A model generated the notes under the pieces. The model was not told the origin of the DNA and made no database searches. It saw only the letters and a program-made list of their open reading frames with translations. The translations under genes were made by a program, and so were the position numbers. A stretch of DNA of 64,000 nt, taken from positions 4,247 through 68,246 of the forward strand of contig JABSOJ010000012.1 in NCBI GenBank assembly GCA_013216005.1, written 5' to 3'. Origin of the DNA: Alteromonadaceae bacterium. Its GTDB lineage: Bacteria > Pseudomonadota > Gammaproteobacteria > Enterobacterales > Alteromonadaceae. Shown in pieces: positions 1 through 60,216 of this stretch (its first letter is position 1; the number at the start of each line of letters is the position of its first letter).

Positions 1-148
1 TTGATTTACCACAACCCGACGGTCCTGAAATAGATACGTATTCTCCTGCACGTATCTCCAAATTAACACCACGCAAGGCATAAGTATCCACATCCTCCAT
101 TTCAAAAACTTTTTTGACGTCCTTTAACAGAATTTTAATATCACTCAT
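1..148 (-). CDS. ABC transporter ATP-binding protein, MacB/LolD-like, N-terminal fragment that runs off the left edge
   Basis: Manual translation of the reverse complement from ATG (146..148) gives MSDIKILLKDVKKVFEMEDVDTYALRGVNLEIRAGEYVSISGPSGCGKS. The Walker A motif GPSGCGKS is present. A GAGGT Shine-Dalgarno lies about 8 nt upstream. The gene starts 53 nt downstream of the NRPS stop on the same strand. It is absent from the ORF track only because fewer than 60 aa are visible. Confidence 0.6.
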   Translation of the reverse strand, partial: MSDIKILLKDVKKVFEMEDVDTYALRGVNLEIRAGEYVSISGPSGCGKS

Positions 149-201
149 AAGTTATACCTCAATATTATCGTTTAATAGGGGGATCATTTTTCAAAAGTGT
201 T

Positions 202-17000: not shown

Positions 17001-17540
17001 CGCCTGAACTTGATCTTCTTCATTGAAGTTGCTAAAATCTTCTTTAAAAACTGGTAGTTGTACTTTTTTCTTAACCAATTGATGAATAGATTCATCTCCG
17101 AAACCAACAAAACAGGTCCGGAAAACATCATGTCGCTCAACAATAAATTTCCATGCGTTGACAAAGGCTATGGTATCGAGATTACCCTTCAATTCACCAA
17201 AGGTTTGTACCGTATAAGACACGCCGTCGCCGTCAAGCAAACCATGGTACAACATTCCCGTCTGCATCGGCGTAGCAATATAGATATTCTGCAAATCGAC
17301 ATGATTCGCTTTAATACGGGTAAACATTTCAGTACTAAGGTTAGCATAAGGAAAGTCAGTTCTGGTCAGTTCATCACCATAGGTAATAAAGTGAATTAAC
17401 GCCTCTTTATTGGCTTTTAACTGTGATAGCAGCTGTGAGGTCAGATTCTTGTCAGGATCATAAACTTTTAACTTGCCATCATCCAGACCGACCGTGATAT
17501 TTTTTTTAGTTAAGTCATTTAAAATACTATAAATGTGCAT
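14061..17540 (-). CDS. Non-ribosomal peptide synthetase, single module (dd-C-A8-T), Gly-type
   Basis: The C domain has HHVLLDGWC and an N-terminal ATPMQTGMLYHGLL. It follows an E domain, so it is presumably DCL type. The A domain has VIYTSGSTGLPKG with by-eye code DILQLGMVWK (Gly). The T domain has FFELGGHSLL. The N-terminal segment is TubC-like and the C-terminal tail is acidic (DDDEIEEIL). Its stop overlaps the next start as ATGA (14061..14064). Confidence 0.95.
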   Translation of the reverse strand: MHIYSILNDLTKKNITVGLDDGKLKVYDPDKNLTSQLLSQLKANKEALIHFITYGDELTRTDFPYANLSTEMFTRIKANHVDLQNIYIATPMQTGMLYHGLLDGDGVSYTVQTFGELKGNLDTIAFVNAWKFIVERHDVFRTCFVGFGDESIHQLVKKKVQLPVFKEDFSNFNEEDQVQALVDFRDKDREKGFDFAHAPLTRISIIRLAEDRFHFVWTYHHVLLDGWCNSLIFGELMQAYQALSEGLKPNFAAVAPYVDYIGWLFKNDKEKSMAFWQHQLAGLTSPTPLPMQINSSMPTGQFRELPLVFDKSVSHDLAVLAKTHHCTVNVLLQFAWSYLLYCYTGEEDISFGATISGRPAELQGVEDMVGLFINSIPSRIVFDNDTSVLEQIRALHGENVLRNEHGYLSLTEIQQQSKIPSGTSLFDSLVIYENYPVGQISAEPKKKETVSISLIESEEQTNYGLTLYASFTDHLLVTIHYRTEQFKPEAITQIGDHLQHILTKMTRADLNLSLLDADLLDTDSFNSADVMRGPEVFLKDQACFHQQLTQQASKSPDAIALVCEGESFSYQELEQRSNQMAHYLQSQGVNKGDFVAVCLQRTPQLLFSLLAVQKVGATYIPVSVDYPQERISYMLDHAKAVKVISISQTWQAIGLPSDNVIMLDNNDVMTQLDQQSGHVVELSTPSTHDDIAYVIYTSGSTGLPKGVCIEQGAMINFLASMAKSPGFNDQDSLLAITPVSFDISVLELYLPLLVGGTVHLANEQVARDAFALSQYIDEYQISVMQATPATWTMLDAVNDWSPQSSSQSSRQFKALCGGEALPAHLATSMVKRYGEVWNMYGPTETTVWSGCQQITEEVMVGKPIDNTQFYILSPNLTMTLSGMAGELHIGGEGLARGYLNADEMTAERFIDNPFEAGGRLYKTGDLVRRRSDGSLDYLGRTDEQVKIRGFRIELGEIEKQLIDVEQIDSAVVVARDDGTGQQQLVAYIKVQRDQDQKNSEAEMALQLRNQLKNTLPDHMVPTAFVLIEQWPLTPNGKVNKKALPIPQSFGFQGEYVAPVNQTQTVLVGVWTNLLKLKNEDVSITANFFELGGHSLLLMRMLSEITEAFDVTLTVADVANAATLEVLSNVVDEYKLSQSLSGPDNDFGSALDDDEIEEIL

Positions 17541-17658
17541 ATTAGGTCCTTAAAAGATAAAACAAATACCCCACAAGGATAATTGTTGTGCATTGTTACG
17601 CTTGTTGTTCATTGAATCTTTCCGCTGAACCTATACAAGACAGCTAGCAATGAGACGA

Positions 17659-41000: not shown

Positions 41001-44000
41001 GAATCAACCCGACCAAGACATTCAATTTCAATATGACCACGGTTACTGATCCAACGACCCATGTCGCCCGTGTTAAACACCAAACCGTTATCAGTTTGAA
41101 CAAAACTTTCAGCCGTTAATTCAGGTTTGTTGATGTAACCCTGTGTCACACCAGCGCCCCCGATATGAATCAAGCCCGGCACACCAATAGGGCATGGTTG
41201 CCCTGTACTGTTAAGGATTGCAACCTGAGTATTGGCTATTGGCGTACCTATACTTAAAGAGGCTGTATAATCAAGCTTTTTCACCGTAGACCAGATAGTG
41301 GTTTCGGTAGGACCATACATGTTCCAGACATCACTGCCGGTACGTTTGAATTGTTCTTTGAGGTTTAGCGACAGCGCTTCACCACCACACAAAATACGAA
41401 TGCCCTGTTCATTGTGCCAGTCCATCCTGAACAATGCCGACCAGGCACTTGGGGTCATTTGCATCACTGCAGGTTTAACCGATTCGATGGTTTCTTTGAG
41501 CACTTGCATGTCAGCCAATTGGGTCGCAGATGCAATAACACAAGTACCACCATTAATGAGCGGAAGAAATAACTCAAGTGCTGCAATGTCAAAACTGTAA
41601 GTTGTTACGGCTAACAGGGTGTCGCCAGAAGCAAAACCTGGGTTATCAGTCATCGACTGCATAAAGTTAACAACATTGGCATGGCTAACTTTAACCCCTT
41701 TGGGCTGACCAGTACTACCTGAAGTATAAATAGCGTAAGCCAAACCGTCAGCGCGGCTATGACAAACAGAAGCGTCAACAAACTTTGCTGTTTGTTCTAT
41801 GTAAACGATTTTGACATCACTGTTAAGTTGCCCATCCAGATTTGACGTTAAACTTGAACTGGTTACCAGCATTGGCATTGCACTGTCCTGAATAATATAC
41901 TGTATTCTGCAGACCGGATATTGTGGGTCCAGCGGAATATATGCCCCGCCTGCTTTCATGATACCCAATAATCCAACCAGCATTGACACACTACGGTCAA
42001 TGTAAATACCGACAAATTGACCGTTTTGCAAACCACCTTCGCGCAAATACGCCGCCAGTTGATGACTGCGTTGCTCCAACTCAACATAGGTAAGCTGTTC
42101 TTGCTCACAACTTACTGCCACTTGATCCGGCGTACGCTGAGCCTGAGCAGAAAAAAGCTGATCAAGGGTAACAGCTAAATCAACCTGAGCAAGATCTTGC
42201 TGGATATTGCCTTGCTGGATTTGAGCAATCATGGCCTGTTCAGTTTCAGTAGTAAAATTAATCGTTTGAACCGATTCGTTGAATTCGCCACTAAACAGTT
42301 CAACAATATTGAGCAGTTGTTCTCCCATAAAATCAATAGATTCACGACGATAAAGATCAGAACTGTATTCAATGTGAATATCAACACCGCCGTCAGGTGT
42401 ATTGACAAAATCAAAAGATAAATCGAATTTCGAGATCGAATACAAAGGATCTAGTATGTGTGCTTTACAGCCGGCCAATTCAAGATTGGTATCCAAATCA
42501 ATATAATTAACAAGTACTTGAAATAACGGATTACGACTTTGATCACGTTCAGGATTAACCGCTTCTACCAATTTTTCAAACGGCAGGTTTTGATGATCCT
42601 GAGCACTGATCATGGTGTTATGTACCATATCGAACAATTCAGATTTGCTTGCGGTAGCACTCTGGTCAGCCAGCTTCAATACCACTGTATTGACAAAGAA
42701 ACCAACCGTTTGCTCAATCAGATGATTATCACGATTAGCTACCGGAATACCAAGGCAGAAATTTGATTGGTCAGCATAATGTTGTAATAGAGTATGTACC
42801 GACGCAATAAAGATCGTGAACACTGTCACTTTATTTTGTTCACATATCTTCTTCAGACGGTTTATTTGTTCAGGATTTATGGGGAATAACACCCGTTCTC
42901 CCCTGCCACTAAGCCTTTTAGGACGTGGCATGTCGGTCGGCATTTCCAGATTATCGAACCCACCTAATTGATTGCGCCAAAACTGAACTTCTTTGTCCAG
43001 ATACTTATCATCCATATAACGGCGCTGCCAAATGGCGTAATCGGGATACTGAATCGCTGGTAAAGTCATCATTGCGTCTTTGCCTTCACGATACAAAACA
43101 TAGCTCCCGGAAATATCCTGCAGCAAAATATTAATTGACCACCCGTCAGAAATAATGTGGTGCATACATACACCTAAAACATGACTGTCTTCACCAAATT
43201 TAAGTAATATCACACGCATCAATGGCGCACTGGCAAGATTAAAAGGTCTGTGGATCCAATTTTCAACAACCGGTCTGAACGTGTCAACATTAGCGATATT
43301 ACAACCGGCACTAACATCCACTTTTTCAATATAGATATGATCAACATCACTGACGATTTGCTCTGCACCATCGCCATTTTTAACAAATTGGGTTCGCAAT
43401 GATTCGTGACGTTTAATCACAAAGTTTAACGACTGTTGCAAGGCCTGCTCATTCAACGGCCCTTCAATACGAACTAAACCCGGCATGTGGTATTTATCGC
43501 TCTCACCTAACGCGGCAAGGAACCATATTCTTTCCTGGCCATAAGACAATGGGATCTGCTGTTCACGCGACTGTGCTGCTAACTGCGGCAACAAATTATT
43601 ACTTTGTTGCTGGCGATCTTCAATCATCGTAGCCAAATTAGCCAAATCCTCCGAATCGTATATTTCACGAATCGACATGGCCACTTCAAAGGTTTCCTTG
43701 ATATGGGAGATCATTTTCATGGCAATCAGCGAATGACCGCCCAGACCAAAGAAATTATCATGACGCCCAATTTTGTCCACTGCAAAAAGATTAAACCAAA
43801 GTTCAGCTAAACGAGTTTCTATTTCCCCCTCAGGCGCTACATAAGTATTTTTTTCTACCGTATTATAATGTTCAATATTATGACTTAGATATTTTCGGTC
43901 CACTTTGCCGCTTGGGGTTAATGGAAATTCATCAATCTTGATCAATTCTGAGGGGTGCATATATTCAGGTAATTTATCCGTCAACTGCTGTTGCAATTGT

Positions 44001-47859: not shown

Positions 47860-50800
47860 TTAATTAGGGTTTTGGGTAGTGCTTCTTTTACGGATAATTC
47901 TGGGTTTCTTTTTCGCCGAACGTAACTTTCGCTTACGCTCGTGCAACAAATCAAAAAGGTCTGCGAGTAATTTGTCAGGATGGTCACAGATAAATTCAGC
48001 GACAAAATGAATATCACCAAGCAAGTAATTGATATCGCTTTGACTAAACCGCTCTGTGTCATAGCAGGCATACATCTGGATCACATCACGGGGGATCACT
48101 ATTAAGGTCAACGCCATCGGGCTTTCACCATGATGGTTAATATCTTCCAGTGCTAATACGCCACTTTCTGTAGTGTAGCTTTCTTCCACCGGATAGTTAT
48201 TAATGTTCAGCAACACATCAAACAAGTTACCAGCGTTGGTGTCGACCAATTTGTTAATTTCGCCCAAAGGCAAAAAGACATGATCTGATTTATCCTGATT
48301 GACGGTTTTAATAGCATTGATCAAGGTCAGCATATCCTGCTGCATATTTAAACGGGTTCGTGACGGAACCGTGCGAATAAACAACCCGGGCACATTGTCA
48401 ATATTATCAATTTCACCCGGTCTGCCTGAAAAGGTTTCACCATAAATAACATCAAGTTGGTCGCTATAATGCGCAAGAACAATAGAATAAACACAATGAA
48501 TCACATGACTCAACGTTAGCTGGTGCTGCGCCGTAAAACGGGTTATTTTGACAGACTCTGCTTCTGAGAAATCAAGCGAATAATTATGTTTGAAGTTACC
48601 TCCGTCCCCTTCTATACTTTCTTTTTTATCAATATTGAGAACTGTTACGGTATTAAATCCAGACAAGTATTCGCGCCAATATTGACGGCTTCGATCAGCA
48701 TCAGCGGTTTTATCATTCAACCAGCTTAAATATTCTCTGTAATTAGCTGTCGGCTTCATCAGTGGTTCTTTGCCGTCGCTCAATGCTTTATAAGTTGCCA
48801 GCAAATCCCGTAAAACAATCGCCATAGACCAGCCATCAATAATGCCGTGATGAAAATTCCACACAAACTGCGTCAATTGATCCTGCATAAAATACAAATG
48901 CAACTGCATCAACGGCACTTCACTCAAAGTAAAACCTTGTTCTCTTTGATTTTTAAGCTGTTTATCACGTTCAAGTGTGGCTTGATCCAACGAAAAATCC
49001 CGTAAGTCATGTATTTGCCACGGCAGGATCACATCTTTAAAAATAACAAACTTGGGTGAATCTAACCCTTGCCCGGCAAAACCGGCCCGCAGTATAAAAT
49101 GATGACGAATAATACGCTGCCATGCTTGTTGCCATAGTTTAGGATCAAAACTTCCTTTGAGATCGCAAGTAATTTGTTCGAAATACAAGGTATTAGTATC
49201 GGCATACATTCCGTGAAAGAATATTTCTTCCTGAGTACTGGTAACGTTGAAAATATCAATGATCCTGTGTGGTGATTTTTTGGAAAAATCAGCAACAAAT
49301 GCAGTAAGTTTTTCTTGTTCTACAGTGATCAACGGAAAGTCTGATGGTGTATATTCAAAGTGATCACATTGACTACACAACAAAATAAGGTCACGTAAAT
49401 GGTTAAGATATTGTAAAAGAAGCCCTTGCATTGTCTCTTTATTATAACTGAGGGTGTCATATCCCCATTCAACATGCAGTTGCCCCGAACGTATCATGGT
49501 ATTGATTTCAAACGCGTGTGTCCGTTTATCTGAACCACTTCGACTGCCTTTTGGCACAGCTTCCATCTGCTGGTAAATAGTGCCTTCATCAAAAGACTGA
49601 TCCAATTGGCCAAGATAATTAAACAACACTTGTGCCCCCTTGGCAGATTTTAGTGTTTGCGCCTGCTTAGACTGACTCAAGTACCGCAACACACCATAAT
49701 TGAAACCTTTGCCCGGCACAAATTTACGTTTTTCTTTAATATTTTTAAGGGTATTACCCAAGTTACCATCAGGATCTGCTGACAACGCCAAGGGGTAAAT
49801 AGCGGTGAACCAACCGAGCGTATGGGATAAATCAATATCTTCAAACACAGCTTCACGACCATGACCTTCAACATCGATTAGTAACTCGTTGCGACCGTTA
49901 AATTCAAACAATGTTAATACCAATGCGGCTAATAACATGTCATTGATGTCAGTATTGAACATTTGTGAGCTGTCTTTAAGTAAACTTGTCGTTTCGTCGC
50001 TACTTAAAGATACTGTGAGCACTTCACTATTCATTTCCAAGAGGTCAGTGCCTTCACTCCCCTGACCTATAGGCAAACAACCATAATCCTTATTGTGAAC
50101 TGCTTGCCAGTACGGCAATTCTTCCTGTACGATGTCGCTGTCTGCGTAAGACGATAATTTGTCGGACCATTGCATAAATGACGATGTTTTAGCTGATAAC
50201 ACGACAGTTTCACCGTTTAATAGCTCCTGATAAGCAGTGTTTAAATCATCAAGGAAAATCCGCCATGAAATACCGTCGGTGATCAAATGATGCATACTCA
50301 AAAACAGTTTTTTCGATTGAGATTCTGACCACTCAAAACATGCGCTCCCTACCAACGGTCCTTTTGCCAAGTCAAAGCTTCCATGCAAACGGGTCATAAT
50401 ATCGTTGATAAACGCCTGCTGCTCGGTCGCAGGTTTATCACCCATTTGATAATGTTCCAATTTTGGTGTTTCAAACAAGCCTGAAAATACCTGTTGTCCG
50501 TCAATAAAACGAGTTTTAAAAATATGATGATAATTAACAACAACTTCAAACGCCTGTTGCAATACATTGGCTTGCACGTCAGCCGCAATACGGAGCATCA
50601 CTGACTGATCCCAGTGGTGAGGCTGGCTGAAATCTTTTTCAAAGAACCAACGCTGTACAGGAGTCAGGGCAAATGCATTATCGAATTCATCCTGTTCGGT
50701 AATCTGACTGGTCACATGTCCGACATTGGCGGCCAACTGTGAAATGGTCGGATATTTGAACACATCGCTGGTCGAAAATTTCACCCCTTGCTTTTTCAGG

Positions 50801-53800
50801 CGTTCAGTCATTTGAATGGCCAAAATAGAGTCGCCACCCAAAGCAAAGAAATTATCGTTAATTCCAATCAAATCATTTTCAATCAACAGCAATGAAGACC
50901 ACACGGCACTTATCGCCTTTTCAGTCAGGTTGTGCGCTTGTTCATACTCACAGGCTAAATCTTCTCGGCTGAACTGAGGCGCTGGCAAGGCTTTTTTGTC
51001 CAGTTTGCCGTTTACCGTCAACGGCATCGCATCAAGCGTCATAAAATGGGTTGGGATCATGTATTCAGGCAGTGATCGGGCAACAAAATTTCGCAATTGC
51101 TCAACCGACACTTTTTTGCCAATAACTTTTTCGACGATAACATAAGCAACTAATTGTTTTTGTTCATTGTCATTTTGATGACACAAAACCACCGCATCAC
51201 GAATATCCTCATGATCCAACAATACCGCTTCAATTTCTTCTAGCTCAATTCTGAAACCACGGATCTTGACTTGATTATCCATTCGGTCATGATAATTAAC
51301 TTGCCCGTCAAAGCGTAATGAAACCATATCACCAGATTTATACAGCCTCTGTGTTAATTCACCATCAAATGTATGTTCAAAAAAACGTTCTTCGGTTAAT
51401 TCCGGATGATTCAAATAACCTCTGGCCAAGCCTGCACCACCTAACATCATTTCGCCATGAACACCCATAGGTTGTAACTGCATTTGGCTATTGCAAACAT
51501 AAATAGCCATGTCATCCAACGGCAAGCCAATCACACTGCTGTCAGTATTAGTATCCTCTTCATTTATTTGATAAAAAGTCGTATATACGGTGGTTTCTGT
51601 CGGACCATACATGTTGAGCAATTCGGTATGGTCGGTCATACCTGCTTCAAACCATGGTTTGATCTTTCTACAATCAAGTTTTTCACCGGCTAACACAACA
51701 TATCGTAAATGCGAGTGCAGTGCAGCGAAGTTGCATAATGAAATAAAGGGATAAAATGCTGAAGGAGTTTGTGCCATTACGGTGACTTGCTGTTGTTGTA
51801 CTAAGTTAACAAAAGCTTCGCTGTCTTTCGCTGTGTCACCCGATACCACCACAAGTTTACCTCCATGAAACAGAGGACCCCACATTTCAAAAACCGACAC
51901 ATCAAAAGCATAAGAATGAAACAGAGTCCAGACATCCTCTGAGCGAAACTGATAATGACCTTTAACTGCTTCAAATAAACGAATAACATTATGATGTTCA
52001 ACCATAACCCCTTTGGGTTTGCCGGTTGAACCTGAGGTATAAATCACATAAGCCAAAGAAAATGGTGTGATACCACTGTCGTTTGCTTCAATATTTGATG
52101 AACTGTTAGTCGCCAACAACTTCTGACTTTGGGCATCATCAAGTACAATAGTGTCAACACCTTTAACATCTGCCGTCAATGAACATAAATCAGCATGGGT
52201 AAGGATCAATACAGCACCAGCATCTTTAATAACATGCTCAATCCGTTCCTTAGGATGCCCAGAATCCAGAGGGATATACGCGGCTCCGGCTTTTAACACC
52301 GCCAGTATAGCCACCAAAGTGTCCGTCGAACGATGCAAGCACAATGCTACTCTTGATTCTGTTTTGATCCCTTGGTTCATCAGTTGACAAGCCAAACGAT
52401 TGGCTTGTTCATTGAGTTGTTGATAAGTTAATTGCTTACCGTCAGGCACCATCACTGCCACATTATCAGGATAAGCAACCACTTGCGCCTCGAATTTAGA
52501 GACAATAGTCAAACCTTCACCATCATGGTTTGTACGACAAGCCAACTTCGCCATGATCTGTTGCTGCTCACCTTTAGGTATCATTGGATACAGGTCGAGT
52601 GGGGTATCACTTTGTTTCGCTACTCCCGACACAATATAAGTAAAATGGCGCAGCATTTGATTAGCATTATCGCTAGTAAATAAACTGGTGTTGTAAATCC
52701 AGGTCAAATCAACTTTGTCAGCCGATTCTGTCACTTCCAAAGTAACATCAAATTGAGAGGTGGTTTGTGGTAAGCCAAGTGATTTCGCCGCTACCGATCG
52801 ACCTAGTACAATCGCATCATCACTATCGTTGAGCAATGCACCCATAGACTTGTTGTCCGCCAGCCCCGCATTTTGATAAACAAATGCAACCTGAAACACC
52901 GGTGAATAACTGGCATGACGAGATGTCTGAGTAGCGACCAGATCAAACGGATAATTCTGGTGAGCCAGCGCCGCCAGTGAGGTGTTTTTGACTTGTTGAA
53001 TCAACTCGGCAAAACTCGCTTCTGAATCAAAGAAAGTACGCAACGCTACCGTATTAACAAAATAACCAACCAAGGGTGACAACTCACTGCTCGGTCTGCC
53101 CAATGTTGGTGTTCCTACAATAATATCGTTCTGACCACTGTAACGGTAAAGCAATAAATTAAAACAACCCAACAACAGTTGATTTAAGGTCACTCCATGT
53201 TGCTGTGCCGTGGTCTTTAACTCGGCAAGCATGTTAGCCCCGAGTGTGACCGAAGTAACATCTCCGGTATAAGTTTGACTTTGCGGTCTGGGAAAGTCAG
53301 CTGGTAACGTTAACAACGGCAACTCACCGGCTAACTGTTGAGACCAATAAGTTTGTGATGCTACCCACGCGTCTTGCGCTAGCTGCTCCCCTTGCCAATA
53401 AGCAAAATCTGCATAAGACAAACTCAACGGGACTAACCCGTCAAACCCCTTGCCATCGTAAATATCGCCAAATTCATTAAGCAGGCACACCAGTGAATGA
53501 AAATCTATGGTGATATGATGGAAGGTCATCACAACAAAATAATCACCGTCTCTGATCACCAGTTCTATTCGAAACACAGGGCCATTGGTCAAATTAAACG
53601 GCACCGCAGATTTTTTAGCCAACAATGCACGCACACCTTCGTCATCAACCCCGTCAGCTTGCGATTGACTGAAAAACGATCCTGCCTCCGCATTGATGTG
53701 TTGCATCACAGTACCATCCACCAACCGATAACTGGTGCGTAATACACTATGGCGTTGTGCCAACATCTGCCACGCTTCTTCAAAACGACTAATATCCAAC

Positions 53801-56019
53801 GGTGCATCAAATTTCATCGCCTTAGCTATATGATAAGCACTGCTGTCAGGGGTCATCTTGTGTATGGACCACATAGAGGTCTGACCACGAGATGCCGGAT
53901 AATCTTGTCGTGACGACTCCGTGATCACCGTCATCTTGTTGCTTTGACGACTTGAAGTAAACTTTTCATACACCAGTATAAACACATCGGCAATACTGTC
54001 CTGACCAAATAATTCATGCACTGGCAAACTAATCGACAGCGCATTCTCCAACCGGTACTGGAACTGCACCGCCTTGAGTGAATCCATACCCTGAGACAAA
54101 ATCGAACTTTTCAGGTCAATATTGTCATTAGCGCACTGCAACATCGTCGCCAATTCTTCGAGTAAAAAAGTGTTTAGCTGTACTTTCCGCTCAGCTGTCG
54201 GCAACTGCAATAATGCCGCTGTATCTATCTCTTGTACCGCGCCGTCTTGCCTGTCTACGTGACTGAATATCTGTTCGTGAAAACCAACCAGAGTCTCTTC
54301 AATAAAGCTCAATCGGGTTAACTGACGTTTAACCTTACCGCTGGAAGTCTTGAGTAATTTACCGATACGCACCAAAATAATAGCGTAAACCTCTAACCCA
54401 AACTCCAACGAAATTTTTTGCCTGATCAATGACACGATATTTTCTTGATCCGCCTTAACCGACTTGGTTGCCCTGACCTCTTGCACTAACACAAGTTTTT
54501 CATCACTATTCACATCAACCGAAAAAGCCGCCGCCGAGCCAATTGGATAATCCGGCAACACCTCTTCTATCGCAAATTCGATATCCTGCGGGTAATAATT
54601 GCTGCCGCGGATAATAATCACATCTTTGATCCGTCCGCCGATATATAATTCGTTTTGATAAATAAACCCGAGATCACCCGTCCTGAGATAGTGAATATCG
54701 TCACCGGGTAAACGAGCCTGATATGTTTCGACTGTCGCTTGCTCTGCTCCCCAGTAACCTAACGCTACACTGGGTCCTGTGATCCAAATTTCACCCATTT
54801 TATTGTCCGGCACAACCGCCAAAGTGTAAGGGTCGACAATAGTTACTTCATGTTCAGTATGCAACTGACCACATCCAACCAGCTGATTTAACTGCTGATT
54901 TTTAACAGCTTCGCCAGTCACTTCAAGCACTTGATATTGGCTTAATGCTTCTGCACTAAAATCTGTGATCACCACTTTTTTAGTTTTATCGCCACCAGTC
55001 AAAAAAACTGTGACTTCGGCCATACCGTAACTGGGATAAAACGCATTATCAGCAAAACCGGCCTTACTAAATTTGGCTTCGAAATCTTTCAGTGTTTTAA
55101 CCCGAATAGGCTCACCGGCATTAAACGCCACTTTCCAGTGAGACAAATCCAATGTGAGAACGTCTTCATCTTTGATCACCTTGACACAATGATCATAAGA
55201 AAAATTAGGTCCACCACAAATAGTGCCCCGATAGGCTTCGATTGTCCTGAACCAACCCAATGGATCACGAATAAAGTCAGGAGGCATCATGATCACCGAT
55301 TTAGCACCGATATAAACTGGTAACAGCATGGTGTTAACCAAACCCAAATCGTGAAATAAAGGTAACCAGTTAACAAAAACATCCTGATCGCTACAATCAG
55401 TTGCGACAATCAAAGAATCGAGATTAGCCACCACGTTTTGGTGAGAAATAATAGCTCCTTTGGGGATCCCGGTCGAACCAGAAGTATATTGCAAATAAGA
55501 TAACGGTTGGCTTGGTGTAATATCACTAATTTCAGTCAAGGGTGTTTCTATGAGTTGTTCAAAGGTCAACAATTCACCGCTAAAATTAAATTCACTGCCA
55601 TCAAAATACGCTCTGGTAGTATCAATGTCTTGAGATAGACAAATAGCTGCTGTGGCCTGACAATTATTGACGACAGCATCAGTTCGGGAATGTTTATCTT
55701 TTAGTCTCGCAGGATATAGCGGCACAGCTACACGATCGGCAAACAAACAACCAAAAAATCCGGCAATGTAACCTAACCCGTTCGGCAACAACAATGCCAC
55801 TCTGTCACCACGATCACCGATACTATTCAATCCGGCAGCTACTTGTCTGGACTTTTGTTCAAGTTCAGCAAAAGTCAATTCTACCTTGGTTTGACCATTG
55901 TCTTGAATAAACACAAACGCAATACCATCCGGATTTTGTTGCGAACGATAAAGCAGCTGATCAATAATAGTGTTGTTTTCAGAACTTCTACTAATCGAGC
56001 TTAAATTATTGGCATTCAT
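47860..56019 (-). CDS. Lipo-initiation NRPS (FAAL-T-C-A1-T-E-C)
   Basis: The N-terminal ~590 aa form a fatty acyl-AMP ligase (YLQYTSGSTGIPKG, GDLGF, GRIKDVIIIRGSNYYPQDIE). Then a carrier domain (GMDSLKAV) and a C domain with HHITIDFHS. A1 has VIYTSGSTGKPKG, code DVFAVAMVYK (unassigned). Then T GGDSILAIQM, E HHLITDGISWRIF, and a final C with HHGIIDGWS. The protein ends in a basic tail (KKKPRIIRKRS) with no A-T after that C domain. Confidence 0.95.
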   Translation of the reverse strand: MNANNLSSISRSSENNTIIDQLLYRSQQNPDGIAFVFIQDNGQTKVELTFAELEQKSRQVAAGLNSIGDRGDRVALLLPNGLGYIAGFFGCLFADRVAVPLYPARLKDKHSRTDAVVNNCQATAAICLSQDIDTTRAYFDGSEFNFSGELLTFEQLIETPLTEISDITPSQPLSYLQYTSGSTGIPKGAIISHQNVVANLDSLIVATDCSDQDVFVNWLPLFHDLGLVNTMLLPVYIGAKSVIMMPPDFIRDPLGWFRTIEAYRGTICGGPNFSYDHCVKVIKDEDVLTLDLSHWKVAFNAGEPIRVKTLKDFEAKFSKAGFADNAFYPSYGMAEVTVFLTGGDKTKKVVITDFSAEALSQYQVLEVTGEAVKNQQLNQLVGCGQLHTEHEVTIVDPYTLAVVPDNKMGEIWITGPSVALGYWGAEQATVETYQARLPGDDIHYLRTGDLGFIYQNELYIGGRIKDVIIIRGSNYYPQDIEFAIEEVLPDYPIGSAAAFSVDVNSDEKLVLVQEVRATKSVKADQENIVSLIRQKISLEFGLEVYAIILVRIGKLLKTSSGKVKRQLTRLSFIEETLVGFHEQIFSHVDRQDGAVQEIDTAALLQLPTAERKVQLNTFLLEELATMLQCANDNIDLKSSILSQGMDSLKAVQFQYRLENALSISLPVHELFGQDSIADVFILVYEKFTSSRQSNKMTVITESSRQDYPASRGQTSMWSIHKMTPDSSAYHIAKAMKFDAPLDISRFEEAWQMLAQRHSVLRTSYRLVDGTVMQHINAEAGSFFSQSQADGVDDEGVRALLAKKSAVPFNLTNGPVFRIELVIRDGDYFVVMTFHHITIDFHSLVCLLNEFGDIYDGKGFDGLVPLSLSYADFAYWQGEQLAQDAWVASQTYWSQQLAGELPLLTLPADFPRPQSQTYTGDVTSVTLGANMLAELKTTAQQHGVTLNQLLLGCFNLLLYRYSGQNDIIVGTPTLGRPSSELSPLVGYFVNTVALRTFFDSEASFAELIQQVKNTSLAALAHQNYPFDLVATQTSRHASYSPVFQVAFVYQNAGLADNKSMGALLNDSDDAIVLGRSVAAKSLGLPQTTSQFDVTLEVTESADKVDLTWIYNTSLFTSDNANQMLRHFTYIVSGVAKQSDTPLDLYPMIPKGEQQQIMAKLACRTNHDGEGLTIVSKFEAQVVAYPDNVAVMVPDGKQLTYQQLNEQANRLACQLMNQGIKTESRVALCLHRSTDTLVAILAVLKAGAAYIPLDSGHPKERIEHVIKDAGAVLILTHADLCSLTADVKGVDTIVLDDAQSQKLLATNSSSNIEANDSGITPFSLAYVIYTSGSTGKPKGVMVEHHNVIRLFEAVKGHYQFRSEDVWTLFHSYAFDVSVFEMWGPLFHGGKLVVVSGDTAKDSEAFVNLVQQQQVTVMAQTPSAFYPFISLCNFAALHSHLRYVVLAGEKLDCRKIKPWFEAGMTDHTELLNMYGPTETTVYTTFYQINEEDTNTDSSVIGLPLDDMAIYVCNSQMQLQPMGVHGEMMLGGAGLARGYLNHPELTEERFFEHTFDGELTQRLYKSGDMVSLRFDGQVNYHDRMDNQVKIRGFRIELEEIEAVLLDHEDIRDAVVLCHQNDNEQKQLVAYVIVEKVIGKKVSVEQLRNFVARSLPEYMIPTHFMTLDAMPLTVNGKLDKKALPAPQFSREDLACEYEQAHNLTEKAISAVWSSLLLIENDLIGINDNFFALGGDSILAIQMTERLKKQGVKFSTSDVFKYPTISQLAANVGHVTSQITEQDEFDNAFALTPVQRWFFEKDFSQPHHWDQSVMLRIAADVQANVLQQAFEVVVNYHHIFKTRFIDGQQVFSGLFETPKLEHYQMGDKPATEQQAFINDIMTRLHGSFDLAKGPLVGSACFEWSESQSKKLFLSMHHLITDGISWRIFLDDLNTAYQELLNGETVVLSAKTSSFMQWSDKLSSYADSDIVQEELPYWQAVHNKDYGCLPIGQGSEGTDLLEMNSEVLTVSLSSDETTSLLKDSSQMFNTDINDMLLAALVLTLFEFNGRNELLIDVEGHGREAVFEDIDLSHTLGWFTAIYPLALSADPDGNLGNTLKNIKEKRKFVPGKGFNYGVLRYLSQSKQAQTLKSAKGAQVLFNYLGQLDQSFDEGTIYQQMEAVPKGSRSGSDKRTHAFEINTMIRSGQLHVEWGYDTLSYNKETMQGLLLQYLNHLRDLILLCSQCDHFEYTPSDFPLITVEQEKLTAFVADFSKKSPHRIIDIFNVTSTQEEIFFHGMYADTNTLYFEQITCDLKGSFDPKLWQQAWQRIIRHHFILRAGFAGQGLDSPKFVIFKDVILPWQIHDLRDFSLDQATLERDKQLKNQREQGFTLSEVPLMQLHLYFMQDQLTQFVWNFHHGIIDGWSMAIVLRDLLATYKALSDGKEPLMKPTANYREYLSWLNDKTADADRSRQYWREYLSGFNTVTVLNIDKKESIEGDGGNFKHNYSLDFSEAESVKITRFTAQHQLTLSHVIHCVYSIVLAHYSDQLDVIYGETFSGRPGEIDNIDNVPGLFIRTVPSRTRLNMQQDMLTLINAIKTVNQDKSDHVFLPLGEINKLVDTNAGNLFDVLLNINNYPVEESYTTESGVLALEDINHHGESPMALTLIVIPRDVIQMYACYDTERFSQSDINYLLGDIHFVAEFICDHPDKLLADLFDLLHERKRKLRSAKKKPRIIRKRSTTQNPN
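54250..56019 (-). other. FAAL (fatty acyl-AMP ligase) loading domain of the initiation NRPS (approximate bounds)
   Basis: The motifs listed for CDS 47860..56019. The carrier Ser motif GMDSL lies at about 54068..54100. Confidence 0.8.
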
Positions 56020-56081
56020 TGATAAATCCTAAGAACTAAGTTCACGAATATTCAGGAACTTATGTCTAGTCAATTACATTA

Positions 56082-57413
56082 TTATTTAACGCTTTTTTGA
56101 AAACTATAAACTGAACCCAAATCCATAATTTGAGTCAATTCATCCAAGGCAGTCCAAGATTCTCTGGCCAACAAGGGATCTTGCAAATCGACCGGAGCTA
56201 GTTTGTCTCTAAAATGTTTTTCAACCCAACTGGTCAGCCGTTTATATAACGATTCAGATAACAATGTGCTGGGATTTACTCCCGTTAACGCATTTTCATC
56301 CATCACCATCCTAAACCTCAAACAAGCAGGTCCTCCGCCATTAGCCATGCTTTGATTTAGGTCAACAAACAACAGTTGGTTAATAGGATTGTCTCGGCTA
56401 ACCACTTCCTGAAGGTAATGATAAACATTGTCGTTTTCACGACACTCAACGGGTAAAATCAACGTCATTGAACCGTCAGGTAATGAAATCAATTGAGAAT
56501 TAAACACATAGGTACTGAGCGCTTCACCGAGAGTGACCTCACTTTCAAGTGCTTTGATCAGATGAAAAGGAGTGTCCTGACCCATCATTTGGTGAATCTG
56601 GTCTAATACCGCGTCACTATTTATGAATGCTTTTTCATGATAAAACATTACATTACGGTTATTCACAGAGATCACATCATTATGAAAAACCCCCTCTTCT
56701 ATCGCTTCAGGGTTTTGTTCAATAAACAGGGTTTTGTTGGCATCTAACAGGTGTAATCTGGAAATTGACTTGGAAGCAGCCAACGTTTGTCGCGCTATGC
56801 TCTTGGTTTCGCGACCCCGGCGTCCGTAAACAAAAACCTCTATGGCTTTTTCATGGTATTGCTGACATATGCGCAAATGGTTGGCGGCACCTTCATCCCC
56901 CAAAAAGGCTACCGCTGGTAGGGCTTTATGATGGACGAAATAATGCGGATCACGAAAAATCAACTTAAGAAATTCGCCACTGGCATTGGTTTCTAAAGAA
57001 CGATGGAACTGGCTGGAAAGATTGGCCGGTGTCACATGAATTTTTCCGTCAGCAGTATCAGAGGCCGGAGAAATAGTAGCTGAATTTGCCGTCCACATGG
57101 CTGATGAAGAATAACATGACCTAAAAACTCTCGGGCTTTCAACAGATGCTTTTGCAATCAAGACTTCGTCTGTGCCACTAAATCCCAGATCACGTAGCGT
57201 ATTCAGGTCAGGTCTTTCCTGAGGCGGAAAAACCCCTTGAACTAAACCCAAATCATGCATGAGTTTCATTTTTTTTAATCCTTGCAATGCAGCCAATTTG
57301 GGATTAGAAATACTATTTTTGTTGGAGTAAGAGGCAACGTTACCGCTACCCAACCCCGAATAGTTATAGCTTGGACCAACCAATCCATCAAAATTAACTT
57401 CTGTCATCCGCAT
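56082..57413 (-). CDS. astB: N-succinylarginine dihydrolase family protein (AstB-like guanidino-group hydrolase)
   Basis: The 443-aa product aligns end to end with my recollection of E. coli AstB: EVNFDGLVG, GDEGAANH, GVFHNDVI, SMANGGGPACLR (catalytic Cys context) and LGSVY near the C-terminus. It is co-oriented with the FAAL-NRPS start, 62 nt upstream of it. Confidence 0.9.
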   Translation of the reverse strand: MRMTEVNFDGLVGPSYNYSGLGSGNVASYSNKNSISNPKLAALQGLKKMKLMHDLGLVQGVFPPQERPDLNTLRDLGFSGTDEVLIAKASVESPRVFRSCYSSSAMWTANSATISPASDTADGKIHVTPANLSSQFHRSLETNASGEFLKLIFRDPHYFVHHKALPAVAFLGDEGAANHLRICQQYHEKAIEVFVYGRRGRETKSIARQTLAASKSISRLHLLDANKTLFIEQNPEAIEEGVFHNDVISVNNRNVMFYHEKAFINSDAVLDQIHQMMGQDTPFHLIKALESEVTLGEALSTYVFNSQLISLPDGSMTLILPVECRENDNVYHYLQEVVSRDNPINQLLFVDLNQSMANGGGPACLRFRMVMDENALTGVNPSTLLSESLYKRLTSWVEKHFRDKLAPVDLQDPLLARESWTALDELTQIMDLGSVYSFQKSVK

Positions 57414-57444
57414 AACATTTAGTTCCTACCGTTACTTACCACAG

Positions 57445-57507
57445 TGTTAGCAAAAACCTATTGGCACTACAACAAATTTCATTTTATTCTTCACAGTTTT
57501 GCTAACA
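57445..57507. promoter_or_regulatory. 11-bp inverted repeat pair TGTTAGCAAAA (57445..57455) / TTTTGCTAACA (57497..57507) in the divergent intergenic region
   Basis: Read directly. The arms are perfect reverse complements separated by 41 bp, and both are preceded by CACAG. They lie 32-94 bp upstream of the astB-like start. No function has been demonstrated. Confidence 0.25.
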
Positions 57508-57585
57508 GTACCAATCCTTTACCTAACTTAGCCTATCAACCTACACTTCAATAAAACAAAGGTATCCAGAGTTTATGATGTTGAA

Positions 57586-57600
57586 TATTCCAATGGAATA
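57586..57600. promoter_or_regulatory. Perfect 7-1-7 palindrome TATTCCA-A-TGGAATA, a candidate operator
   Basis: Read directly. It lies 136 bp upstream of the acylase GTG and 173 bp upstream of the astB-like ATG. Confidence 0.25.
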
Positions 57601-57735
57601 ATAGTCCAAATTCGTGACAATTCTATTTTTTATAATAAAAAAAACCTTTTGTGCTAATTCCAACTTTTCTGGCGAATCTCAGGATCGCTGCTAAACTTCT
57701 GGACCAGCAATCAAGAGCTTTAGAGAGAATTTATC

Positions 57736-60216
57736 GTGTTTAAAACATCCCCCTTTATGAAGCGAACATTGATATTTATAGGTATCCCCATACTTGTTTC
57801 AATAGCCGTAGCCATCAAATATGTATATGGCAGTTTGAAAGTTGAGTCCGTCTATGTGGTCAAAAAAGGTCTGCAAGGTTTAGACAAAATCGTGCAAGTT
57901 ACTCGTGATGACAAGGGAGCCTTGTTCATCAAAGGTGAAACGGATAAAGATGTTTATTTTGCTTTAGGTTTTGCCCATGCTCAGGATCGAATGTGGCAGC
58001 TTGAATTACAACGCAGAATAGCCAAAGGTACTCTAAGTGAAATTTTCGGTCGCGAATCACTCAATAGGGATATTTGGATGCGTACCCTAGGGCTGGCTGA
58101 AGCGGCTAAATCAGCTTGGACGGCGATTAGCCCACAAACTAAATCTGCCTTGACCGCCTATACCAATGGGATTAACGCCTGGCTTGAATCCAACCCTGCG
58201 TTGTCACCTGAATTTATGCTGCTTGAAAACAAACCGGAACCTTGGACCGAACTGGATTCACTCTCATGGATGAAAGTATTCTCATTAAACCTCGCCGCCA
58301 ACATGTGGAACGAACTAGCCAATATGGCCGCTGGTCAATCGCTAACCCAAGAACAAGCTGCCGATATTCTCAAAACATACCCTGAAACAGGTCCCGTAAC
58401 TATACCCAATACTACAGCCAACCAGCTACCGCAACCAGATAAAAATAAACGTTTAGAAAAGGCACAACATATTGTTGCCCAACTGTTTAAAATTAAGCAA
58501 TCGATGGAAAAAGAACTGGCTATCGGCGGCAAATATGTTGGTAGTAATGCTTGGGTGGTTTCCGGTAAACTGACTGACAATGGTCAGCCAATTCTGGCTA
58601 ACGACCCTCATATGGGCATCCAAATCCCGGCCCTTTTTTATTTTGCTTCACTCAAGGGGGATAAACTCGATGTATCAGGCATGACGCTAGTCGGATTACC
58701 TGTGGTGATATTTGGTCGCAATAAAGACATAACTTGGGGCGGCACCAATATGTTTGCCGATACTCAAGACTTGTATTTTGAACAAACCAATGGCGAAAAT
58801 GCTGCCGAATATCGCGTTGGTGACCAATGGGAAAAGTTCGACACCCACAAAGAGATTATCCATGTTAAAGCACCCTTTCCCCAGTTTTTACGACCCAAAC
58901 TAAAACCTGTCGAGATTCAAGTACGTAAAACCCATAACGGTCCTGTTGTTTCAGACGCAAGTGGAATGTTCGACCAACCCATCTCACTAAAATGGACGGC
59001 ATTGGAAGATAACGATACAACACTTGAAGGTTTTTACCGACTTGGTTATGCAACCGACTGGAATAGCTTTAAAGCAGCCATGAAATACCATGTGGCGCCT
59101 GCATTAAACATGCTTTATGCCGACACAAATAACAACATCGGATTTTTGGGGATTGGTAAGATACCGGTGCGAAGTCTGGGTGAAGGTCAATTCCCTACTG
59201 TTGCCTGGAATGGTCTAAACAAGTGGACAGGTTACATTCCTTTTGATCAATGGCCATACAGTTATAATCCGGATCAGGGATATCTGGTATCGGCAAACAA
59301 CAAAAATGTTAATTCCGACTACCCCTATTTCATTTCACATGACTGGGCTCCATCGACACGAGCCGAGCGTATTGAGCAGCTATTAACCGCACCAGATGCA
59401 GTATTGAATATTGAATATATGAAAAAAATACAAGCCGATACCTTTGATATCAGTGCCACCAAACTGCATAAAACACTATCCGCATACAAACCACAAGATG
59501 AACGTCAAACCGAGGCGATTAATTTGATAAAGGTCTGGAATTTGGATATGGCCATTGACCAATCTGCAGCAAGCATATTTTACGTATGGACAAGACACCT
59601 TCGCACCCACCTGTTTTCAGATGAATTAACAAGTTCCTGGAACCAAAAATCGCAAGTAATTATTTTCGATAATTTTATTGCCGAGGTCTCTTATGATCAA
59701 ATCAACAAAGTCTTGACCGACACAACTCCTAACTGGTGTGACGATGTTAATACTGACATAACAGAGAGCTGCGAAACGGTCTTGTCGAACTCATTGAACG
59801 ACGCACTTAATGAATTGGATCGGTTTGGAGGGTCAGATATGGACGACTGGCAATGGGGTGGGCTACATATAGCAGTATACCGCCACACCCCTTTTAGCGG
59901 TCAGAACCTACTTGACAAGATGTTCGAACGACGAATCGCTAATGGAGGATCACCTAACACCGTCAATTCCGCCAGTGCCTACTACAACAAAACAGAAGGC
60001 TATGAACAGGGATCAGGCGCCACGTTCAGACAAATTGTACAGATGAACAAGAAAAAAACGCGACACTTATATATGAATTCCACAGGTCAGTCTGGACATT
60101 TTCTGAGCCCTTATTATGACAATATGATAGAGCCTTTTCAAAATGTCCATTATTTTGAAGCTGGCGAATTGAAGCCCGGTACAACCACCGACACCTATAA
60201 ACTTAAACCGGAATAA
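57736..60216 (+). CDS. Penicillin-amidase-family Ntn hydrolase (QuiP/PvdQ/aculeacin-acylase-like N-acyl amidase), membrane-anchored or secreted
   Basis: The 826-aa product has an N-terminal hydrophobic helix (RTLIFIGIPILVSIAVAI). It carries YFALGFAHAQDRMWQLELQRR, typical of the family. The autoproteolytic junction G|SNAWVVSG places the nucleophile at Ser270 (58543..58545), followed by ANDPHMG. The start is GTG with a purine-rich AGAGAGA upstream. Confidence 0.9.
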   Translation: MFKTSPFMKRTLIFIGIPILVSIAVAIKYVYGSLKVESVYVVKKGLQGLDKIVQVTRDDKGALFIKGETDKDVYFALGFAHAQDRMWQLELQRRIAKGTLSEIFGRESLNRDIWMRTLGLAEAAKSAWTAISPQTKSALTAYTNGINAWLESNPALSPEFMLLENKPEPWTELDSLSWMKVFSLNLAANMWNELANMAAGQSLTQEQAADILKTYPETGPVTIPNTTANQLPQPDKNKRLEKAQHIVAQLFKIKQSMEKELAIGGKYVGSNAWVVSGKLTDNGQPILANDPHMGIQIPALFYFASLKGDKLDVSGMTLVGLPVVIFGRNKDITWGGTNMFADTQDLYFEQTNGENAAEYRVGDQWEKFDTHKEIIHVKAPFPQFLRPKLKPVEIQVRKTHNGPVVSDASGMFDQPISLKWTALEDNDTTLEGFYRLGYATDWNSFKAAMKYHVAPALNMLYADTNNNIGFLGIGKIPVRSLGEGQFPTVAWNGLNKWTGYIPFDQWPYSYNPDQGYLVSANNKNVNSDYPYFISHDWAPSTRAERIEQLLTAPDAVLNIEYMKKIQADTFDISATKLHKTLSAYKPQDERQTEAINLIKVWNLDMAIDQSAASIFYVWTRHLRTHLFSDELTSSWNQKSQVIIFDNFIAEVSYDQINKVLTDTTPNWCDDVNTDITESCETVLSNSLNDALNELDRFGGSDMDDWQWGGLHIAVYRHTPFSGQNLLDKMFERRIANGGSPNTVNSASAYYNKTEGYEQGSGATFRQIVQMNKKKTRHLYMNSTGQSGHFLSPYYDNMIEPFQNVHYFEAGELKPGTTTDTYKLKPE

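What the first reader, a model, noticed from the sequence alone, without database searches (positions are those of the whole stretch)
56020..57413. An AstB (succinylarginine dihydrolase) homologue heads the megasynthase operon, away from any other AST-pathway gene
The ORF keeps the AstB catalytic context (GGGPACLR Cys, GVFHNDVI His, GDEGAANH). It is co-oriented with the FAAL-NRPS and 62 nt upstream of it. I see only a weak 6-bp AT-rich stem (AAGTTC...GAACTT) with no U-tract in the gap, so read-through is likely. No astA, astC, astD or astE is present in 64 kb.

AstB converts an N-acylated arginine guanidino group to an amine: N2-succinyl-Arg becomes N2-succinyl-Orn plus CO2 and 2 NH3. Next to a pathway that makes an N-acylated peptide, with two A domains whose codes carry an acidic residue at position 239 (A2, A12) and so may take cationic substrates, it could be a tailoring or precursor-supply enzyme for Arg-to-Orn conversion on an acylated intermediate.

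The N-terminal substrate-region motif also differs from my recollection of E. coli AstB: GPSYNYSGLGSGNVAS here, GLTHHYAGLSFGNEAS in E. coli.
Basis: inference. Interest (0 to 1): 0.62.

Follow-up and report, generated by a model that had tools for sequence, protein, structure and literature searches.

The report
NRPS-linked clade of AstB arginine dihydrolases
A second, divergent copy of the arginine-breakdown enzyme AstB sits as the first gene of a giant lipopeptide synthetase operon, and it belongs to a small clade whose four known members all lie beside such synthetases, so it probably supplies or edits an ornithine/arginine-type building block rather than doing housekeeping.

Summary
ORF 56082..57413 (-) is a full-length AstB-family protein (443 aa) with an intact Cys-His-Glu triad. 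It lies 62 nt upstream of the FAAL-NRPS with no terminator, and no other ast gene is in the window.

It is not the housekeeping copy. The same assembly has astC-astA-astD' on another contig. It also has a separate astB (55% identical, frameshifted) that groups with Thalassotalea-type astB.

The window copy belongs to a clade of four AstBs (SH-aLRT 99 among 167 family members), and all four lie beside NRPS genes. Three sit directly upstream of collinear FAAL-ACP-C-A-T-E-C synthetases (100, 62 and 42% identity). None of 13 other astB loci has NRPS genes in its fetched flanks.

The clade shows no remodelled active site. It has no diagnostic residue and keeps the family-wide conserved columns.

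The first module is not Arg-type in any of the three clusters, which argues against an N-fatty-acyl-Arg starter. Two unrelated AstB-linked clusters share a diamino-acid-type A-domain code, DIE[T/S]IGTVIK.

Best reading (about 0.45): a cluster-dedicated guanidino dihydrolase that provides an ornithine-type unit from N2-acylated arginine. The substrate is untested.

The parts
56082..57413 (-). astB* : 443-aa AstB-family guanidino dihydrolase. Catalytic Glu174, His244 and Cys364 are present. It is the first gene of the minus-strand NRPS operon.
   Evidence: clade placement
56020..56081 (-). 62-nt spacer between astB* and the FAAL-NRPS. It has a weak 6-7 bp AT-rich hairpin, no U-tract and no terminator-like site. 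AGGA lies 8 nt before the NRPS ATG.
47860..56019 (-). Initiation megasynthase FAAL-ACP-C-A1-T-E-C (2719 aa). It is collinear with the synthetases downstream of astB* in L004 (62% identity) and L047 (42% identity).
57414..57735 (.). 322-bp divergent intergenic region between astB* and the Ntn acylase gene, presumed to hold the promoters of both operons. No Rfam family matches it.
57736..60216 (+). Penicillin-amidase-family (PvdQ-like) Ntn acylase, divergent from astB*. The same divergent arrangement is seen in L004.
1303..2238 (-). A12 adenylation core (A4-A10) of the last NRPS module, code DIETIGTVIK (diamino-acid type). A near-identical code, DIESIGTVIK, occurs in the unrelated AstB-linked NRPS of L022.
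43877..44809 (-). A2 adenylation core, code DPENIGAVTK (Asp235 and Glu239, so a possible cationic substrate). An earlier unchecked note says this module is served by the stand-alone TauD-type oxygenase.

Best explanation
astB* encodes an active guanidino-group dihydrolase of the AstB type. It was recruited long ago into a family of FAAL-primed NRPS lipopeptide clusters and is expressed with the synthetase as the first gene of the operon.

Its likely job is to strip the amidino group from an N2-acylated arginine: guanidino to ureido to amine, releasing CO2 and 2 NH3. The most economical substrate is the cell's own N2-succinyl-arginine. This would deliver an ornithine-type skeleton for the cluster's diamino-acid-selecting adenylation domain or domains (A12 DIETIGTVIK, possibly A2 DPENIGAVTK).

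**Shown**
- Family membership and the intact catalytic apparatus.
- It is a second copy.
- The clade exists and is linked to NRPS genes.
- The spacer has no terminator.

**Inferred**
- The substrate.
- That A12 takes ornithine.
- Whether a desuccinylase acts, or whether the enzyme instead works on a pathway intermediate.
For: 1. **It is an extra copy.** The assembly also carries astC-astA-astD' on C500, a separate astB on C603 that is only 55% identical, and an AstE-type gene on C106.
2. **The NRPS linkage is conserved.**
   - P0003 (74-75% aa identity) lies in L004 between the same divergent acylase and a collinear FAAL-NRPS (62% identity over 1643 aa).
   - The L047 AstB (51% identity) lies 147 nt upstream of a FAAL-NRPS that is collinear over 2714 aa (42% identity).
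   - P0015 lies next to a different NRPS in L022.
3. **The four form one clade**, with SH-aLRT 99 among 167 family members. Searches of 5.8 billion clustered proteins found no further close member.
4. **The linkage is not a general property of astB.** None of 13 other astB loci has NRPS genes in its fetched flanks.
5. **Purifying selection.** Between the window and L004 copies dN is 0.19 while synonymous sites are saturated. AstB* (74%) is better conserved than the neighbouring NRPS (62%).
6. **The enzyme looks active.** The catalytic triad and all family-wide conserved columns are kept. All four proteins pass the astB equivalog cut-off, and the fold matches 1YNH at TM 0.95.
7. **A shared A-domain type.** Two architecturally different AstB-linked clusters share an A domain with code DIE[T/S]IGTVIK. 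The two domains are each other's best match: 46% identity against a 32-40% background.
8. **The code fits a diamino acid.** PMC10522769 shows that Asp1 and Glu3 of the code bind the side-chain amine of diamino acids. Position 2 sets chain length (Phe for DAP/DAB, Met for Orn, Ala for Lys). That paper also reports DIESIGTVTK in one fungal homologue and says most fungal sequences fall in the ornithine-activating branch.
9. **Operon position.** There is no terminator in the 62-nt gap, and astB* is the first gene after the divergent control region.
Against: - No experiment or transcript data bear on this.
- The clade has no diagnostic residue, so nothing in the sequence points to a pathway-specific substrate.
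- The cluster encodes no desuccinylase that would free ornithine from N2-succinyl-ornithine.
- The A12 substrate is predicted only by analogy. Lys, Arg or Dab are not excluded.
- A near-identical code (DIESIGTVVK) sits on another NRPS contig (C566) with no astB on that 16.5-kb contig.
- In L022 the AstB lies in a different transcription unit (response regulator, histidine kinase, astB) that converges on the NRPS.
- Contig C44 carries only cluster genes. Its membership of this MAG rests on binning: 42% GC against 37%, and a tetranucleotide outlier together with the other NRPS contigs.
Confidence: 0.45

Rival explanations
1. Post-assembly or on-line tailoring. AstB* converts an arginine residue to ornithine or citrulline. 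The substrate could be a released peptide with a C-terminal N2-acyl-Arg and a free carboxylate, or another small acylated intermediate. This would do by pentein-fold chemistry what peptide arginases do in RiPPs.
For: - A12 is the last module before the TE, so a hydrolytically released product would end in an N2-acylated residue with a free carboxylate. That is formally analogous to N2-succinyl-Arg.
- The AstB* clade is mildly enriched for small or polar residues in and near the substrate loop: Ser19, a small residue at position 23 where others have Phe/Pro/Leu/Tyr, and Ser/Cys111.
- The linkage with NRPS genes is conserved.
Against: - AstB closes a lid over a small buried ligand (abstract of Tocilj et al. 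2005, from my own knowledge). A 12-residue lipopeptide is an unlikely fit.
- The active site is not remodelled.
- In L022 the DIES-type module is not terminal.
- The A12 code, with Glu239 and Thr322, fits a primary-amine side chain better than a guanidinium by the PosA rules.
- A1 is not Arg-type.
Confidence: 0.15
2. Ordinary AstB carried along with the cluster. Either it is a hitch-hiking passenger, or it replaces the decaying housekeeping astB. In both cases it does normal arginine catabolism (nitrogen scavenging) and has no chemical role in the peptide.
For: - The sequence is fully canonical and passes the astB equivalog threshold.
- The assembly's housekeeping astB carries a 1-nt frameshift. 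The same-genus genome G001 has an ~890-bp internal deletion in its astB while astA is intact.
- Earlier notes of this scan suggest that orphan astB genes away from ast operons are common.
Against: - Passengers are not expected to stay directly upstream of the same synthetase while that synthetase diverges to 42% identity, nor to form a clade in which 4 of 4 members are NRPS-adjacent against 0 of 13 elsewhere.
- G001 lost astB and has no AstB*. So the genus tolerates the loss, and replacement is not required.
- The frameshift may be an assembly error, which could not be checked.
Confidence: 0.25
3. Self-protection. AstB* is a resistant duplicate of the product's target, or it detoxifies a guanidino-bearing product inside the producer.
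For: It meets three usual criteria for resistance genes found by target-directed mining: duplication, location in the cluster, and a phylogeny that disagrees with the host's own copy.
Against: - AstB is a non-essential catabolic enzyme, so it is a poor antibiotic target (established knowledge of the AST pathway).
- The cluster already has exporters: an ABC transporter, an HlyD adaptor and MacB-type genes.
- The predicted statine-type Phe-PKS unit points to protease inhibition, not to a pentein enzyme as target.
Confidence: 0.05

Closest known systems
N-succinylarginine dihydrolase AstB of the AST pathway (E. coli astCADBE; PDB 1YNF/1YNH/1YNI)
   Same: - Same family (PF04996, TIGR03241) and same fold (TM 0.95, 48% identity).
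- Same Cys-His-Glu triad and the same family-conserved residues.
   Different: - It is a second copy in the assembly and is phylogenetically separate from the host's own astB.
- It is encoded at the head of an NRPS operon with no other ast gene nearby.
- It belongs to a four-member clade found only beside NRPS genes.
Peptide arginases of RiPP pathways (OspR type; PMC10028609, PMC12703449)
   Same: They also make ornithine from arginine for a peptide natural product and are encoded in the biosynthetic cluster.
   Different: - They have an arginase fold, depend on metal, release urea, and act on ribosomal peptides (per those papers' abstracts).
- Here the enzyme has a pentein/GME fold with a Cys nucleophile, would release CO2 and 2 NH3, sits in an NRPS context, and probably acts on a small substrate.
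Cyanobacterial arginine dihydrolases ArgZ/AgrE (PDB 6LRH)
   Same: GME-superfamily enzymes that take a guanidino group all the way to the amine (Arg to Orn). They are the next-best structural match.
   Different: - Only 13-14% identity and TM 0.5.
- They act on free L-arginine in primary nitrogen metabolism and are not cluster-linked.
Amidinohydrolases that remove the arginine-derived guanidino group late in marginolactone-type polyketide biosynthesis (from my own knowledge, not checked here)
   Same: A cluster-encoded enzyme that unmasks an amine from a guanidino group in a natural-product pathway.
   Different: - Agmatinase/arginase fold, polyketide starter-unit logic, urea released.
- No sequence relationship was tested here.

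Membership tests
AstB / N-succinylarginine dihydrolase (PF04996, TIGR03241) | Full-length match to the family models above the curated cut-offs | tested here: met
   - PF04996: 624 bits against a cut-off of 27.
- TIGR03241: 606 bits against a cut-off of 538.
- The other three clade members score 562-624 bits.
AstB / N-succinylarginine dihydrolase (PF04996, TIGR03241) | Cys-His-Glu catalytic triad (E. coli Cys365, His248, Glu174) | tested here: met
   Cys364, His244 and Glu174 are present and aligned with E. coli AstB. They are invariant or nearly so in 151 diverse members.
AstB / N-succinylarginine dihydrolase (PF04996, TIGR03241) | Five-fold pseudo-symmetric alpha/beta propeller (pentein) fold | tested here: met
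   The AlphaFold model (pLDDT 85.7) matches 1YNH_B at TM 0.95, rmsd 1.7 A.
AstB / N-succinylarginine dihydrolase (PF04996, TIGR03241) | Substrate-contact residues (E. coli loop 19-28, Asn110, His137-Arg138, Arg212, Asp250, Asn359). This list is recalled from UniProt/HAMAP annotation, not read here. | tested here: inconclusive
   - Asn110, His137, Arg138, Arg208, Asp246 and Asn358 are all kept. The loop keeps Gly20, Leu21, Gly24, Asn25, Ala27 and Ser28.
- The contact list itself could not be verified.
AstB / N-succinylarginine dihydrolase (PF04996, TIGR03241) | Encoded with the other AST-pathway genes (astCADBE or aruCFGDBE context) | tested here: not met
   - No astA, astC, astD or astE lies in the 64-kb window or on the 68.9-kb contig.
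- Context is not a strict family criterion. The host's own astB also stands apart from astCAD.
AstB / N-succinylarginine dihydrolase (PF04996, TIGR03241) | Hydrolysis of N2-succinyl-L-arginine to N2-succinyl-L-ornithine, CO2 and 2 NH3 | not testable with these tools
   This needs an enzyme assay.
Cluster-dedicated NRPS accessory enzyme (precursor supply or tailoring) | Gene linkage with the synthetase conserved across diverged clusters | tested here: met
   - Three collinear FAAL-NRPS loci (100, 62 and 42% identity) each have astB* directly upstream, with gaps of 62, 163 and 147 nt.
- A fourth clade member lies beside another NRPS.
- 0 of 13 other astB loci show this.
Cluster-dedicated NRPS accessory enzyme (precursor supply or tailoring) | Co-transcription with the synthetase | tested here: inconclusive
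   Same strand, 62-nt gap, no terminator-like site.
Cluster-dedicated NRPS accessory enzyme (precursor supply or tailoring) | The product contains the residue the enzyme makes or modifies (Orn, Cit or Arg) | not testable with these tools
   There are only predictions from codes: A12 DIETIGTVIK and A2 DPENIGAVTK carry the Asp1/Glu3 pair of diamino-acid A domains. The product is unknown.
Self-resistance copy of an antibiotic target | Duplicated, cluster-located and phylogenetically foreign copy of an essential housekeeping enzyme | tested here: not met
   Duplication, co-location and foreign phylogeny are met. But AstB is not essential, and the same-genus genome G001 has lost it.

The most novel reading that the evidence does not exclude
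The four NRPS-adjacent AstBs define a previously unrecognised class of NRPS accessory enzyme. It would be a pentein-fold dihydrolase using guanidino-to-amine chemistry on an N-acylated arginine-type pathway intermediate, for example as an amidino protecting-group strategy or to install Orn/Cit. That would be the NRPS counterpart of the RiPP peptide arginases, with the DIE[T/S]IGTVIK adenylation domain as its partner module.
Probability: 0.2. Interest if true: 0.75.

Novelty: new variant of a known kind. Interest (0 to 1): 0.55.

Why it matters
AstB is known only as a step of arginine catabolism. Full-text searches found no paper linking it to non-ribosomal peptide clusters.

A clade found only beside NRPS genes would add a new accessory function to genome-mining rules. 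It would also suggest how marine gammaproteobacteria feed or edit ornithine/arginine-type residues in lipopeptides. The test is simple: enzyme assays, A-domain assays, and a 42-Da mass shift on deletion.

It is also a caution for annotation. All four proteins pass the astB equivalog threshold and would be auto-named as housekeeping enzymes.

Tried and rejected
- **Neofunctionalisation inferred from divergence.** Against about 120 close (mostly Alteromonadales) AstBs, the window protein looked changed at many invariant sites: S22, K135, T180, E212, D239 and others. With E. coli, distant phyla and 145 representatives at 50% clustering, nearly all of these fall within normal family variation. The number of deviations (12-13) equals that of E. 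coli AstB (13). No clade-diagnostic residue exists. I dropped the claim of a remodelled pocket.
- **Mapping changes onto ligand contacts.** Model coordinates are not exposed to the Python box. The AstB structure paper, the AgrE paper and the pentein review are not held.
- **More orthologous clusters through the acylase.** In 300 family genomes the acylase-ABC pairs are 43-51% identical but lie in unrelated contexts. Six fetched neighbourhoods had no astB and no collinear FAAL-NRPS.
- **Species-genome scan for close AstB relatives.** Only distant astBs at 49% identity or less were found.
- **Literature look-up of the A-domain codes.** No hits.
- **Conserved hairpin in the spacer.** The window and L004 have a stem in the same position with compensatory changes, but neither fold beats shuffles (z -1.6 and +0.6). 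Two sequences cannot show covariation.
- **Riboswitch or other known RNA in 55900..57850.** None found.
- **Alternative Arg-to-Orn routes in the genome.** No ADI-family gene was found. There is one arginase-family gene of unknown specificity. This is uninformative.
Full report
**1. What is there**

It matches Pfam AstB end to end at 624 bits. It also passes NCBI's astB equivalog model, 606 bits against a cut-off of 538.

An AlphaFold model (pLDDT 85.7) superposes on 1YNH/1YNI at TM 0.95.

The stop codon is followed by exactly 62 nt before the ATG of the 2719-aa FAAL-ACP-C-A-T-E-C synthetase. The spacer contains the weak AAGTTC/GAACTT hairpin. It has no U-tract and no terminator-like hit, and its fold is not better than shuffles. 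An AGGA lies 8 nt before the NRPS start.

Upstream lies a 322-bp divergent region, then a PvdQ-like Ntn acylase, a cyclic-peptide ABC exporter, an HlyD adaptor and a type II thioesterase. The rest of the window is six NRPS/PKS proteins and a TauD-type oxygenase. They carry 12 A domains, and a KS-AT-KR-ACP module follows a Phe-type module. No other ast gene is in the window or on the contig.

**2. It is a second, foreign copy**

The assembly is a MAG of 801 contigs with 37.2% GC. Contig C500 carries astC-astA and the first 42 codons of astD. Contig C106 carries an AstE-type gene. Contig C603 carries another astB.

The C603 copy is 55% identical to the window protein. Its closest relative is a Thalassotalea AstB at 75%, inside the ordinary gammaproteobacterial group. 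It has a one-base deletion in a T run that splits the frame.

In the one same-genus genome (G001) the orthologous astB has lost about 890 bp internally, while astA is intact. That genome has no copy of the window type.

**3. The linkage to NRPS genes is conserved**

A search of 5.8 billion clustered proteins gave one close relative, P0003 at 74-75% identity. Everything else was at 56% or less.

- **L004 and L005 (P0003).** P0003 occurs on two metagenome contigs. On L004 it lies between the start of a divergent acylase (51% identical to the window's) and a FAAL-ACP-C-A-T synthetase. That synthetase is collinear with the window's and 62% identical over 1643 aa. Between the two astB genes, synonymous sites are saturated while dN is 0.19.
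- **L047.** Searching with the first 1200 residues of the window's synthetase gave only one protein above 37% identity: P0428 at 42-43%, collinear over 2714 aa. Its contig L047 has a 443-aa AstB 147 nt upstream on the same strand. A CadC-like regulator precedes that AstB.
- **L022 (P0015).** A fourth divergent AstB lies on L022 next to a different NRPS. Its neighbours are a sigma-54 response regulator, a histidine kinase, an S41 peptidase and a MacAB-type pump.

In a tree of 167 family members, 145 of them representatives at 50% clustering from 1.84 billion proteins, these four form one clade with SH-aLRT 99. None of the 13 other astB loci I had fetched has NRPS genes in its fetched flanks.

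That scenario is excluded.

**4. What the sequence does not show**

Against the close Alteromonadales-type AstBs the window protein seemed altered at many invariant positions. That was a sampling artefact. It deviates at 12 of the 143 highly conserved columns. E. coli AstB deviates at 13, and AstBs of other phyla at 9-22.

Across 151 diverse members the window protein departs from columns conserved at 90% or more at only three sites: H16Y, L367F and Y401F. P0003 departs at two and P0015 at none.

With all four clade members there is no diagnostic residue. There are only mild enrichments for Ser19, a small residue at position 23 and Ser/Cys111.

So the enzyme is most simply read as a working AstB-type dihydrolase with a canonical or near-canonical small substrate.

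**5. Which residue might it serve?**

*First module.* The first A domain reads DVFAVAMVYK in the window. It is Thr-like (D[FV]WSVGMVH) in L004 and L047. The fatty-acylated first residue is therefore not arginine, which removes the N-fatty-acyl-Arg starter idea.

*Diamino-acid-type modules.* Two modules carry the Asp235/Glu239 pair: A2 (DPENIGAVTK) and A12 (DIETIGTVIK). The NRPS beside P0015 is otherwise different, but it has an A domain with code DIESIGTVIK. That domain and A12 are each other's best match, at 46% identity against a 32-40% background.

*What the code suggests.* The PosA study (PMC10522769) shows structurally that code positions 1 (Asp) and 3 (Glu) hold the two amines of diamino acids. 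It shows that position 2 tunes chain length: Phe for DAP/DAB, Met for Orn, Ala for Lys. It also notes DIESIGTVTK in one fungal homologue and says most fungal sequences fall in the ornithine-activating branch. By that rule a bulky Ile at position 2 suggests ornithine rather than lysine. This is analogy, not proof.

*Other cationic-type modules in the assembly.* There are further codes of this type: DIESIGTVVK on C566, DMEDSGTVDK on C133 and DMENSGAVNK on C788.

**6. Most likely mechanism**

astB* is co-expressed with the synthetase. It removes the amidino group from an N2-acylated arginine, most economically the N2-succinyl-arginine made by the host's AstA. This would yield an ornithine skeleton for the diamino-acid module or modules.

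Several gaps remain:
- The cluster encodes no desuccinylase.
- The A12 substrate is unproven.
- There are no transcript data.
- In L022 the AstB is in a neighbouring, convergent unit.

I put this reading at about 0.45. The rivals are:
- Tailoring of an Arg residue on a released or small acylated intermediate: 0.15.
- An ordinary AstB that is a passenger, or that replaces the decaying housekeeping copy: 0.25.
- Self-protection: 0.05.

**7. Caveats on provenance**

Contig C44 holds only cluster genes and a transposase remnant. It is a compositional outlier, with 42% GC and a tetranucleotide correlation of 0.88 against a median of 0.99. The MAG's other NRPS contigs are outliers too, and they share identical Gly, Ser and Ala-type codes with it.

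The statement "second copy in the same genome" therefore rests on binning. The clade-level argument does not depend on it.

**8. Novelty**

The enzyme family is known. A clade of it tied to NRPS clusters has not been described in the literature I could search. The nearest functional analogues use an unrelated fold: the RiPP peptide arginases and, from my own knowledge, polyketide amidinohydrolases. I rate it a new variant of a known kind and of moderate interest. A simple experimental test is available.

Noticed in passing
G000 contig C603 (L002 92..1434) and G001:C145 (L046 about 5310..5776): The housekeeping astB is damaged in both genomes of this genus. The window's assembly has a 1-nt deletion in a T run. 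G001 has an internal deletion of about 890 bp (90% nt identity on both sides). astA is intact in both genomes.
   Followed up: partly
window 56030..56060 (-) and L004 2503..2530 (+): A small hairpin lies at the same place 6-10 nt upstream of the NRPS ribosome-binding site in both loci, with apparently compensatory changes (AAGTTC/GAACTT versus AAGCAC/GTGCCTT). Neither fold is better than shuffles, and two sequences cannot show covariation.
   Followed up: partly
G000 contigs C566, C133, C788 (outside the window): Other NRPS contigs of the same MAG carry further cationic-type A-domain codes: DIESIGTVVK, DMEDSGTVDK and DMENSGAVNK. They also carry Gly, Ser and Ala-type codes identical to those of the window. 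This suggests several related lipopeptide or siderophore clusters with a high demand for ornithine-type units.
   Followed up: partly
L022 (JGI 3300045300 contig) 1..18829: A different AstB-linked cluster. It has a MacB permease, ATPase and adaptor; a sigma-54 response regulator, a histidine kinase and astB on one strand; and a converging S41-family peptidase and NRPS. The NRPS codes are DIESIGTVIK, then DLFNNALTYK, then DALVVGLIYK, followed by a TE.
   Followed up: partly
L047 3..2141: In the third collinear locus, astB and the FAAL-NRPS are preceded on the same strand by a 712-aa protein. It has an OmpR/CadC-type winged-helix domain and TolB-like PD40 repeats, so it is a possible membrane-bound pathway regulator. 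The window and L004 have the divergent acylase at this position instead.
   Followed up: no
G000 contig C44 1..4246 and 68247..68896 (flanks of the window): The left flank holds a MacB-type ATPase and an 811-aa permease, plus a 274-aa ORF that I take, by eye only (no family search run), to be kinase-like. The right end holds a fragment I take, also by eye, to be a transposase remnant. The contig has no housekeeping gene to anchor it in the chromosome.
   Followed up: partly
window 17659..34854 (-), protein residues about 2640..4140: A KS-AT-KR-ACP module sits inside the 5731-aa NRPS directly after the Phe-type A6 module.
   Followed up: partly
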